Source: Octopus vulgaris (lineage: Eukaryota). Taken from it: a stretch of DNA of 64,000 bases. The stretch lies in NCBI GenBank assembly GCA_951406725.2, contig OX597824.1, positions 93,930,001-93,994,000 on the forward strand. Reading direction: 5' to 3'. Numbering within the stretch: position 1 is the first letter of the stretch; each line of letters begins with the position of its first letter. Of the stretch, positions 25,918 to 26,164 are shown piece by piece. The position numbers were made by a program, and so were the translations under genes. The notes below the pieces were generated by a model. It was not told the DNA's origin, did not search any database, and saw only the letters and a list, made by a program, of their open reading frames with translations.

Positions 25918-26164
25918 CCGGAGTAAACACATAAATGTGAAACAAGGTGGAAAAAAGAGTACTCAAATACCAGTGGTAGAGTAATATGCTTTATTTTAAG
26001 CAGCAGAAAATTCAACAAAATCTGTTACTCTGAGTTTCTCGTTGCCGTTCATCAGACAGTTTTTGCTAGAATGGAACTGCATTCTAGCAAAAACTGTCTG
26101 ATGAACGGCAACGAGAAACTCAGAGTAACAGATTTTGTTGAATTTTCTGCTGCTTAAAATAAAG
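25918..26164 (-). mobile_element. Fold-back hammerhead element, family H, inserted in (TA)n
   Basis: Perfect 85 bp arms 25989-26073 and 26080-26164 with a 6 nt spacer; 71 bp tail 25918-25988 whose ccgg end abuts (TA)n. Homologous to 26602 and 34962. Confidence 0.9.
26086..26139 (+). ncRNA. Type-I hammerhead ribozyme motif (mirror copy on the minus strand at about 26014-26067)
   Basis: agcaaaaactgt-CUGAUGA-a-cg(gcaa)cg-a-GAAA-ctcagaG-UA-acagattttgtt. Helix I pairs 11 of 12, helix III is ACU(cag)AGU, cleavage triplet GUA. Helix II is only 2 bp plus a GNRA loop. Confidence 0.7.

What the first reader, a model, noticed from the sequence alone, without database searches (positions are those of the whole stretch)
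25989..26164. Perfect 85 bp palindrome placing two hammerheads back to back
Seen: zero-mismatch arms with a 6 nt spacer, each containing the whole ribozyme motif. Transcription from either strand gives the antisense copy first, then the ribozyme. Inference: the fold-back would sequester the ribozyme in an 85 bp duplex, so the insertion is self-masking and would not cut a host pre-mRNA. It would also be a substrate for ADAR or Dicer (A-to-I editing is extensive in coleoids) and a cruciform-prone DNA site.
Basis: partly seen in the sequence, partly recalled or inferred. Interest (0 to 1): 0.7.

Follow-up and report, generated by a model that had tools for sequence, protein, structure and literature searches.

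The report
Palindromic Penelope retrotransposon stub in intron
The palindrome is real, but it is one of about 700 similar mirror-image stubs of a young Penelope-like jumping gene in this genome, likely made when the element copies the end of its RNA onto both sides of one DNA cut, so the burying of its predicted ribozyme in a hairpin is probably a by-product and not a purpose-built switch.

Summary
Observation confirmed: 85-nt arms, no mismatch, 6-nt spacer, one hammerhead-like motif per strand. It is a 247-bp, 5'-truncated, head-to-head insertion of a young Hydra-clade Penelope-like element (3.36-kb unit, 727-codon RT/GIY-YIG frame) in (TA)n, inside a predicted 107-kb intron of a carbonic-anhydrase-related gene. 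About 720 loci carry the same back-to-back hammerheads (34% of 4,224 cores). Perfect arms are normal for this subfamily (11 of 16). In 62 of 65 inverted insertions one arm stops at a short end and the other carries a 71-nt tail. The short arm often reaches further 5' (16 vs 4), and some arms share no sequence. This fits priming from both ends of one cut better than fold-back of one cDNA. The hairpin would bury the ribozyme (-147 vs -6 kcal/mol), but the motif is a minimal dimer type, probably near-inactive alone, and many copies have no masking arm. Inverted copies and opposite-strand hammerhead pairs are published for Penelope elements, and this scan reached the same reading on another piece of this genome. 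Cleavage, editing and read support for this junction remain untested or unshown.

The parts
25818..25917 (.). (TA)n target tract, left flank
25918..25988 (-). 71-nt 'tail' of the element (positions +68 to +138 from hammerhead C3), present on the left arm only
   Evidence: in full copies it runs into the ORF start
25989..26073 (-). left palindrome arm: 5'-truncated pLTR copy; hammerhead-like core 26055 to 26026
26074..26079 (-). spacer GAACTG = six further element bases (-23 to -18) of the left arm; blunt junction, no microhomology
   Evidence: same letters upstream of the core in L036
26080..26164 (+). right palindrome arm: pLTR copy from -17 to the short end (+67)
26098..26127 (+). minimal type-I hammerhead-like core; predicted cut after GUA (26127|26128); stem II 2 bp with A.A at 10.1-11.1; self-complementary stem III
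26165..26480 (-). (TA)-rich right flank that is an inverted duplicate of host 25256-25575
26602..26723 (.). second inverted insertion of the same subfamily (short arm -, tail arm +, 4-nt junction overlap), no hammerhead core
34962..35100 (.). third inverted insertion, older allele on both arms, no whole core
36328..36464 (+). host exon of a carbonic-anhydrase-related gene; preceding exon ends at G000:C11:93859581, so the palindrome lies in a predicted 107-kb intron
   Evidence: (PF00194, E 5e-7)

Best explanation
The palindrome is a short head-to-head insertion of a Hydra-clade Penelope-like retrotransposon in a (TA)n tract, likely made when the element's protein primes reverse transcription from both ends of one DNA cut and the two cDNA ends are then joined, and its RNA would form a hairpin that buries a probably weak hammerhead as a by-product. 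Shown: family identity, copy numbers, two fixed 3' ends, one end type per arm, arms of one subfamily, junction clustering just 5' of the ribozyme. Inferred (about 60%): one cDNA starts at +67, the other at +138, both tend to stop near -4 to -23, and end joining (microhomology, templated inserts) fuses them. Inferred (about 85%): masking is incidental, not selected.
For: 3,422 exact copies of the 38-nt core, control 0. The core is the pLTR of a 3.36-kb unit with a 727-codon open frame bearing YRDDG, RWK, DKT, CxCX5C and a GIY-YIG-like GVVY..YTG without CCHH (against the definition in PMC8557442 section 11). Stems I and III equal those of Hydra-2_aMil. 723 tight back-to-back pairs. One short plus one tail end: 44 of 46 and 62 of 65, all 65 with 3' ends outward (the samples overlap on C1:0-27 Mb); genome-wide 1,840 short vs 1,719 tail-continuing. 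Arms agree at subfamily sites: 22 of 22, 39 of 40, 35 of 37, 27 of 29. Short arm reaches >8 nt further 5' in 16 pairs, tail arm in 4, 20 within 8 nt (p=0.012); in L022, L116, L132, L144 the arms share no sequence. An anole PLE protein cuts and extends both strands, starts at two sites bracketing the tail, and is predicted to be a dimer (PMC11167929). Other fold-back joints of the family occur in contigs of three independent studies.
Against: No biochemical test of this element. Central deletions after insertion could also produce the arm-length bias. Two independent primings do not by themselves explain why pairs are almost always short plus tail; a fixed geometry must be assumed. The stop zone is unexplained: 23 of 42 longer arms end at -23 to -4, but 0 of 25 mapped upstream pLTRs of tandem copies do. 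Pfam and PDB sequence searches gave no hit for the ORF, so clade membership rests on motifs and by-eye comparison with supplement alignments. Published self-priming and EN-resolution models remain open.
Confidence: 0.85

Rival explanations
1. Same element, but the inverted arm arises by fold-back or self-priming of one strand, and the endonuclease then trims the tail from one arm during integration.
For: Arms always belong to one subfamily; 28 of 42 junctions overlap by 2 or more nt (local-alignment estimate); self-priming is proposed in PMC3846280 and EN resolution of the tail in PMC8557442.
Against: If the first strand is target-primed at the tail end, the short arm cannot reach further 5', yet it does in 16 vs 4 pairs. 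Zero-loop CTAG junctions are common and suit annealing of two ends better than a hairpin (inference). In vitro start sites match both tail ends.
Confidence: 0.3
2. Selected self-masking: intronic copies persist because the antisense arm stops an active ribozyme from cutting the host pre-mRNA.
For: Site is in a predicted intron; duplex dominates the fold; junctions cluster just 5' of stem I, so both arms often span the whole motif (630 vs 93).
Against: The motif is minimal and dimer-type; a single such motif showed no cleavage and the anole one needs protein. Only 1 of 68 whole motifs has both U4 and a paired 10.1-11.1, and 31 of 68 have C at U4. Unmasked and core-less copies are common, two of them in this same intron.
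Confidence: 0.08
3. A palindromic master copy spreads as a MITE-like or retrozyme-like unit.
For: A few junction types recur many times.
Against: The same junction occurs in both subfamilies (L105) and in both polarities (L042 vs L045, L058 vs L064); this window's junction is seen once among the 50 loci listed; no tandem monomers.
Confidence: 0.05
4. Long-read fold-back or assembly artefact.
For: No contig of 8 public runs showed this exact junction; the flank also holds an inverted duplicate.
Against: Arms end at two fixed element positions in (TA)n (50 of 56 and 41 of 52), are unequal in length, diverge with subfamily age (0.56%, 1.75%, 2.30%), and family fold-back joints appear in other studies' contigs.
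Confidence: 0.02

Closest known systems
Hydra-clade EN+ Penelope-like elements (Craig et al. 2021, PMC8557442), e.g. Hydra-1_Obim, Hydra-2_aMil, Penelope-13_HM
   Same: All listed protein motifs, (TA)n target, type-I hammerhead near the 3' end; Penelope-13_HM is listed with a 5'-truncated inverted copy and a hammerhead on each strand.
   Different: A different family from Hydra-1_Obim (other hammerhead, 3.36 kb vs 2.5 kb); thousands of young copies; 71-nt tail vs the 30-40 bp described; stem II cut to 2 pairs.
Minimal hammerheads of metazoan PLEs (Cervera and de la Pena 2014, PMC4209133)
   Same: Palindromic stem III suited to dimers; pairs on opposite strands about 100-700 bp apart already reported in Schistosoma.
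   Different: Here cores lie 0-60 nt apart at about 720 loci; G10.1-C11.1 is replaced by A.A; stem II is short.
Poseidon PAc of Anolis (Frangieh et al. 2024, PMC11167929)
   Same: Two reverse-transcription start sites bounding a tail; both DNA strands cut and extended; AT-rich target.
   Different: Other clade; the parts read (2 of 4) leave later integration steps open and do not tie the two sites to the two arms of inverted copies.
L1 twin priming (recalled)
   Same: Both target ends prime cDNA, joined by microhomology.
   Different: L1 gives one inverted, non-overlapping piece; here both arms copy the same 3' region and both 3' ends face outward.
Palindromic Harbinger repeats of Xenopus as ADAR targets (PMC5625713)
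   Same: Self-folding repeat giving tight dsRNA without a neighbouring copy.
   Different: DNA-transposon repeat; editing shown there, untested here.

Membership tests
Hydra-clade EN+ PLE | Single ORF, RT then C-terminal GIY-YIG endonuclease | tested here: met
   727-codon frame with YRDDG and GVVY..YTG; read by motif, Pfam silent
Hydra-clade EN+ PLE | RWK motif and DKT in place of DKG | tested here: met
   RLRWKAFFF and NSDKTRN
Hydra-clade EN+ PLE | CxCX5C linker; no CCHH cysteines between GIY and YIG; CxxC and CxH near the C-terminus | tested here: met
   CNCKNESSC; GVVYRAKVQVEGSSEYKTYTG; KCRLC, CRH
Hydra-clade EN+ PLE | Insertion into (TA)n | tested here: met
   50 of 56 short ends and 41 of 52 tail ends run straight into TATA
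Hydra-clade EN+ PLE | pLTR partial tandems, inverted 5'-truncated copy, tail at one end | tested here: met
   L037, L038; 62 of 65
Hydra-clade EN+ PLE | Phylogenetic placement within the Hydra clade | not tested
   no tree built; by-eye agreement with Hydra rows in the supplement only
Type-I hammerhead ribozyme | Core CUGANGA / GAAA / UH and stem I | tested here: met
   (stem I pair probabilities 0.94-0.95 for 3 pairs checked, 0.40 for the pair next to the cut)
Type-I hammerhead ribozyme | Stem II closed by a 10.1-11.1 pair (G-C highly conserved) | tested here: not met
   A.A, then 2 pairs and a GCAA loop; U.U at this spot is common in other Hydra motifs
Type-I hammerhead ribozyme | Stable stem III as a monomer | tested here: not met
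   pair probability 0.00; self-dimer of the stem III segment -9.4 kcal/mol
Type-I hammerhead ribozyme | Self-cleavage | not testable with these tools
   needs an assay; no raw RNA reads were offered
Non-LTR retrozyme | Head-to-tail tandem monomers, each with a hammerhead | tested here: not met
   head-to-head pair; no such array in the tandem-repeat rows around the site; definition

The most novel reading that the evidence does not exclude
This young family records how Penelope-like elements integrate: one protein dimer primes the two ends of a (TA)n cut at two different fixed RNA sites 71 nt apart, so most insertions are born as inverted repeats. With roughly 4,700 such insertions (extrapolated from 46 in 27 Mb), it is a major built-in source of the near-perfect dsRNA behind octopus hyper-editing.
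Probability: 0.3. Interest if true: 0.6.

Novelty: new member of a known kind. Interest (0 to 1): 0.3.

Why it matters
The locus itself is one ordinary copy. The family is useful: how Penelope-like elements form inverted repeats and one-sided tails is named as an open question in PMC8557442. Here thousands of young copies, two base-exact 3' ends and open reading frames give a sharp prediction (start sites +67 and +138, one per DNA end) that the existing in vitro assay could test. It is also a candidate source of intronic dsRNA in a heavily editing animal.

Tried and rejected
Rfam found no hammerhead among the 150 of 326 rows shown for the window and none on the right arm alone. A DNA search of the genome returned nothing because common words are skipped. 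Pfam (0 of 3 proteins) and PDB sequence search were blank for the ORF; the Atlas did not hold it. No RNA holder listed; all 24 runs were contigs. No listed contig of 8 runs bridged this junction (tables cut), which shows nothing about the source animal. A transcription start at about -16 as the cause of the junction cluster: Inr-like letters are there (motif recalled), but 0 of 25 mapped tandem upstream pLTRs end there (30 loci, 4 without a match and 1 spurious match dropped), so it is left open. Pile-up of 5' ends at the ribozyme cut (+31): 2 arms in the +30 to +39 bin of 116, rejected. A splice acceptor at -10: many arms run to -15/-16, rejected. The lone arm folds no better than shuffles (z -0.37). 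A direct genome-wide count of short/short, tail/tail and mixed pairs is not available; it rests on the C1 samples. Literature searches 'Penelope + twin priming', 'Penelope-like, target-primed, both strands, head-to-head', 'octopus, Penelope, hammerhead' and 'octopus, A-to-I, Penelope, inverted' listed no title describing this family or the one-end-per-arm rule; the library lacks most subscription papers and I saw only listings for most hits.

Full report
1. Observation. The arms 25989-26073 and 26080-26164 are exact reverse complements, spacer GAACTG. Only one other complex perfect inverted repeat of 20 nt or more with a spacer up to 30 nt lies in the window, and it belongs to the same family. 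The left arm continues for 71 nt (25918-25988), so the insert is 247 bp between (TA)n tracts. I number element positions from hammerhead C3 = +1.

2. What it is. The 38-nt core has 3,422 exact copies in G000, control 0; a 15-nt core has 4,224 and the 3'-end 18-mer 9,736. Fetched long copies show a 3.36-kb unit with partial tandems and inverted arms. L038 holds a 727-codon open frame right after the tail. It shows every protein feature listed for the Hydra clade of Penelope-like elements in PMC8557442 section 11: RWK, DKT, CxCX5C linker, no CCHH, CxxC and CxH. By eye it follows the Hydra rows of that paper's supplement. The hammerhead shares stems I and III with Hydra-2_aMil and differs from Hydra-1_oBim, so this is another family. 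Pfam and PDB gave no hit; no tree was built.

3. The palindrome is the family's usual product. Back-to-back cores occur at 630 places with a 0-30 nt gap and 93 with a 31-60 nt gap (a few complex junctions may count twice), 34% of cores. I fetched all loci behind the first 100 hits (C1:0-27.4 Mb, 65 loci): 46 inverted pairs and 24 lone arms. Partner arms under about 18 nt or rearranged were missed, e.g. L097, L123, L011. Of the pairs, 44 of 46 had one arm ending at +67 and one at +138. From the listed hits up to C1:167 Mb, 62 of 65 clusters were of this mixed type and all 65 had 3' ends outward. Genome-wide the two end types number 1,840 and 1,719 in the youngest subfamily. Arm-to-arm mismatch is 0.56% in that subfamily, to which this copy belongs, with 11 of 16 pairs perfect; older subfamilies show 1.75% and 2.30%. 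Perfection therefore reflects youth.

4. How it likely forms. Both arms come from one subfamily (22 of 22, 39 of 40, 35 of 37, 27 of 29 sites). Among 40 tight mixed pairs the short arm reaches more than 8 nt further 5' in 16, the tail arm in 4, and 20 are within 8 nt (p=0.012). In L022, L116, L132 and L144 the tail arm is tail only and shares nothing with the short arm. A target-primed first strand that folds back cannot give these cases, unless later deletions reshaped them. Priming from both ends of one cut can. PMC11167929 (parts 1-2 of 4 read) shows a PLE protein that cuts and extends both strands, starts at two sites bounding the tail and is predicted to be a dimer. Junctions overlap by 2 nt or more in 28 of 42 tight pairs (local alignment over-extends in a few rows), and several carry templated inserts, a recalled signature of polymerase-theta end joining. 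This window's junction is blunt, -23 against -17. The rival, self-priming plus endonuclease trimming (PMC3846280 passages and Discussion; PMC8557442 passages), is not excluded. Unexplained: 23 of 42 longer arms end at -23 to -4, yet 0 of 25 mapped upstream pLTRs of tandem copies do.

5. The ribozyme and masking. The core letters and stem I are present. Stem II is two pairs behind an A.A mismatch, and stem III does not form in the lone arm (probability 0.00) but is self-complementary, the dimer type of PMC4209133 (parts 1-2 of 4 read). There a single motif showed no cleavage and multimers little, and opposite-strand pairs 100-700 bp apart were already noted. Each transcript here holds one sense motif, so the pair cannot act as that dimer. 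Of 68 whole motifs sampled, 31 have C at U4 and 1 has both U4 and a paired 10.1-11.1. The duplex (-147.3) far outweighs the hammerhead fold (-6.3), so masking is thermodynamically right. But of 42 tight pairs 18 have two whole motifs, 12 have one (7 with the cut site unpaired) and 12 have none, and 20 of 24 lone arms carry a whole motif. I could not compare intronic with intergenic copies.

6. Context. An exon at 36328-36464 matches PF00194, later exons lie downstream on the same strand, and a matching upstream exon ends at C11:93859581 in the same phase. The palindrome is thus in a predicted 107-kb intron; the CA10/CARP-like label is recalled. Two further family insertions without a whole core lie in the same intron.

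7. Reads. All runs offered were contigs and no RNA holder was listed. Contigs of three studies show other fold-back joints of the family; none listed bridges this junction. Artefact is unlikely for the reasons in section 3 but is not directly excluded for this locus.

8. Papers seen: PMC8557442 (passages, sections 11 and 15, supplement searches and part 2 of 59), PMC11167929 (parts 1-2 of 4; supplements not read), PMC4209133 (parts 1-2 of 4), PMC3846280 (passages, Discussion), PMC8969392 (passages), PMC5625713 (passages), bioRxiv 10.64898/2026.07.22.740005 (part 1 of 5; its supplements are closed and may list further families). Others only as search listings. An earlier scan note on another piece of this genome reached the same reading; it is not independent support.

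9. Verdict. A real feature and a new member of a known kind; interest 0.3. The value lies in the family, which gives a base-exact prediction for PLE integration, not in this copy.

Noticed in passing
window 25256-25575 vs 26165-26480: About 320 bp of host flank is duplicated in inverted orientation, starting at the element's short end and ending before the second insertion; 3 substitutions in the first 99 bp plus TA-length changes. Possibly a repair or template-switch event; it would add a second long duplex to the intron.
   Followed up: partly
window 16390-16435 (-): A second, unrelated hammerhead-like motif with a 5-bp stem II closed by G-C and a palindromic stem III; probably the end of another Penelope-like family.
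   Followed up: no
window 16732-17100 and 19288-19663: Tandem dimers (184 and 190 bp period) of an abundant SINE-like repeat (label recalled).
   Followed up: no
family-wide: The older subfamily has C at hammerhead U4 and often G or U at 11.1; the youngest has U4 with A.A at 10.1-11.1. Almost no copy has a fully canonical core.
   Followed up: partly
L037:2062-4242, L038:5219-7402, L039:3077-5362: Three copies with long open frames (727-762 codons); L038's arms are 99.8% identical over 3.5 kb, so the family is recent; 69 pLTR-ORF junctions genome-wide.
   Followed up: partly
L086, L105, L016, L122 and the window: Family insertions often cluster within 0.1-1.3 kb, sometimes from different subfamilies, which suggests reuse of hot (TA)n tracts.
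   Followed up: no
one search runs: Near-identical element words are held by runs under eight coded organism labels; only contigs of eight runs were laid.
   Followed up: no
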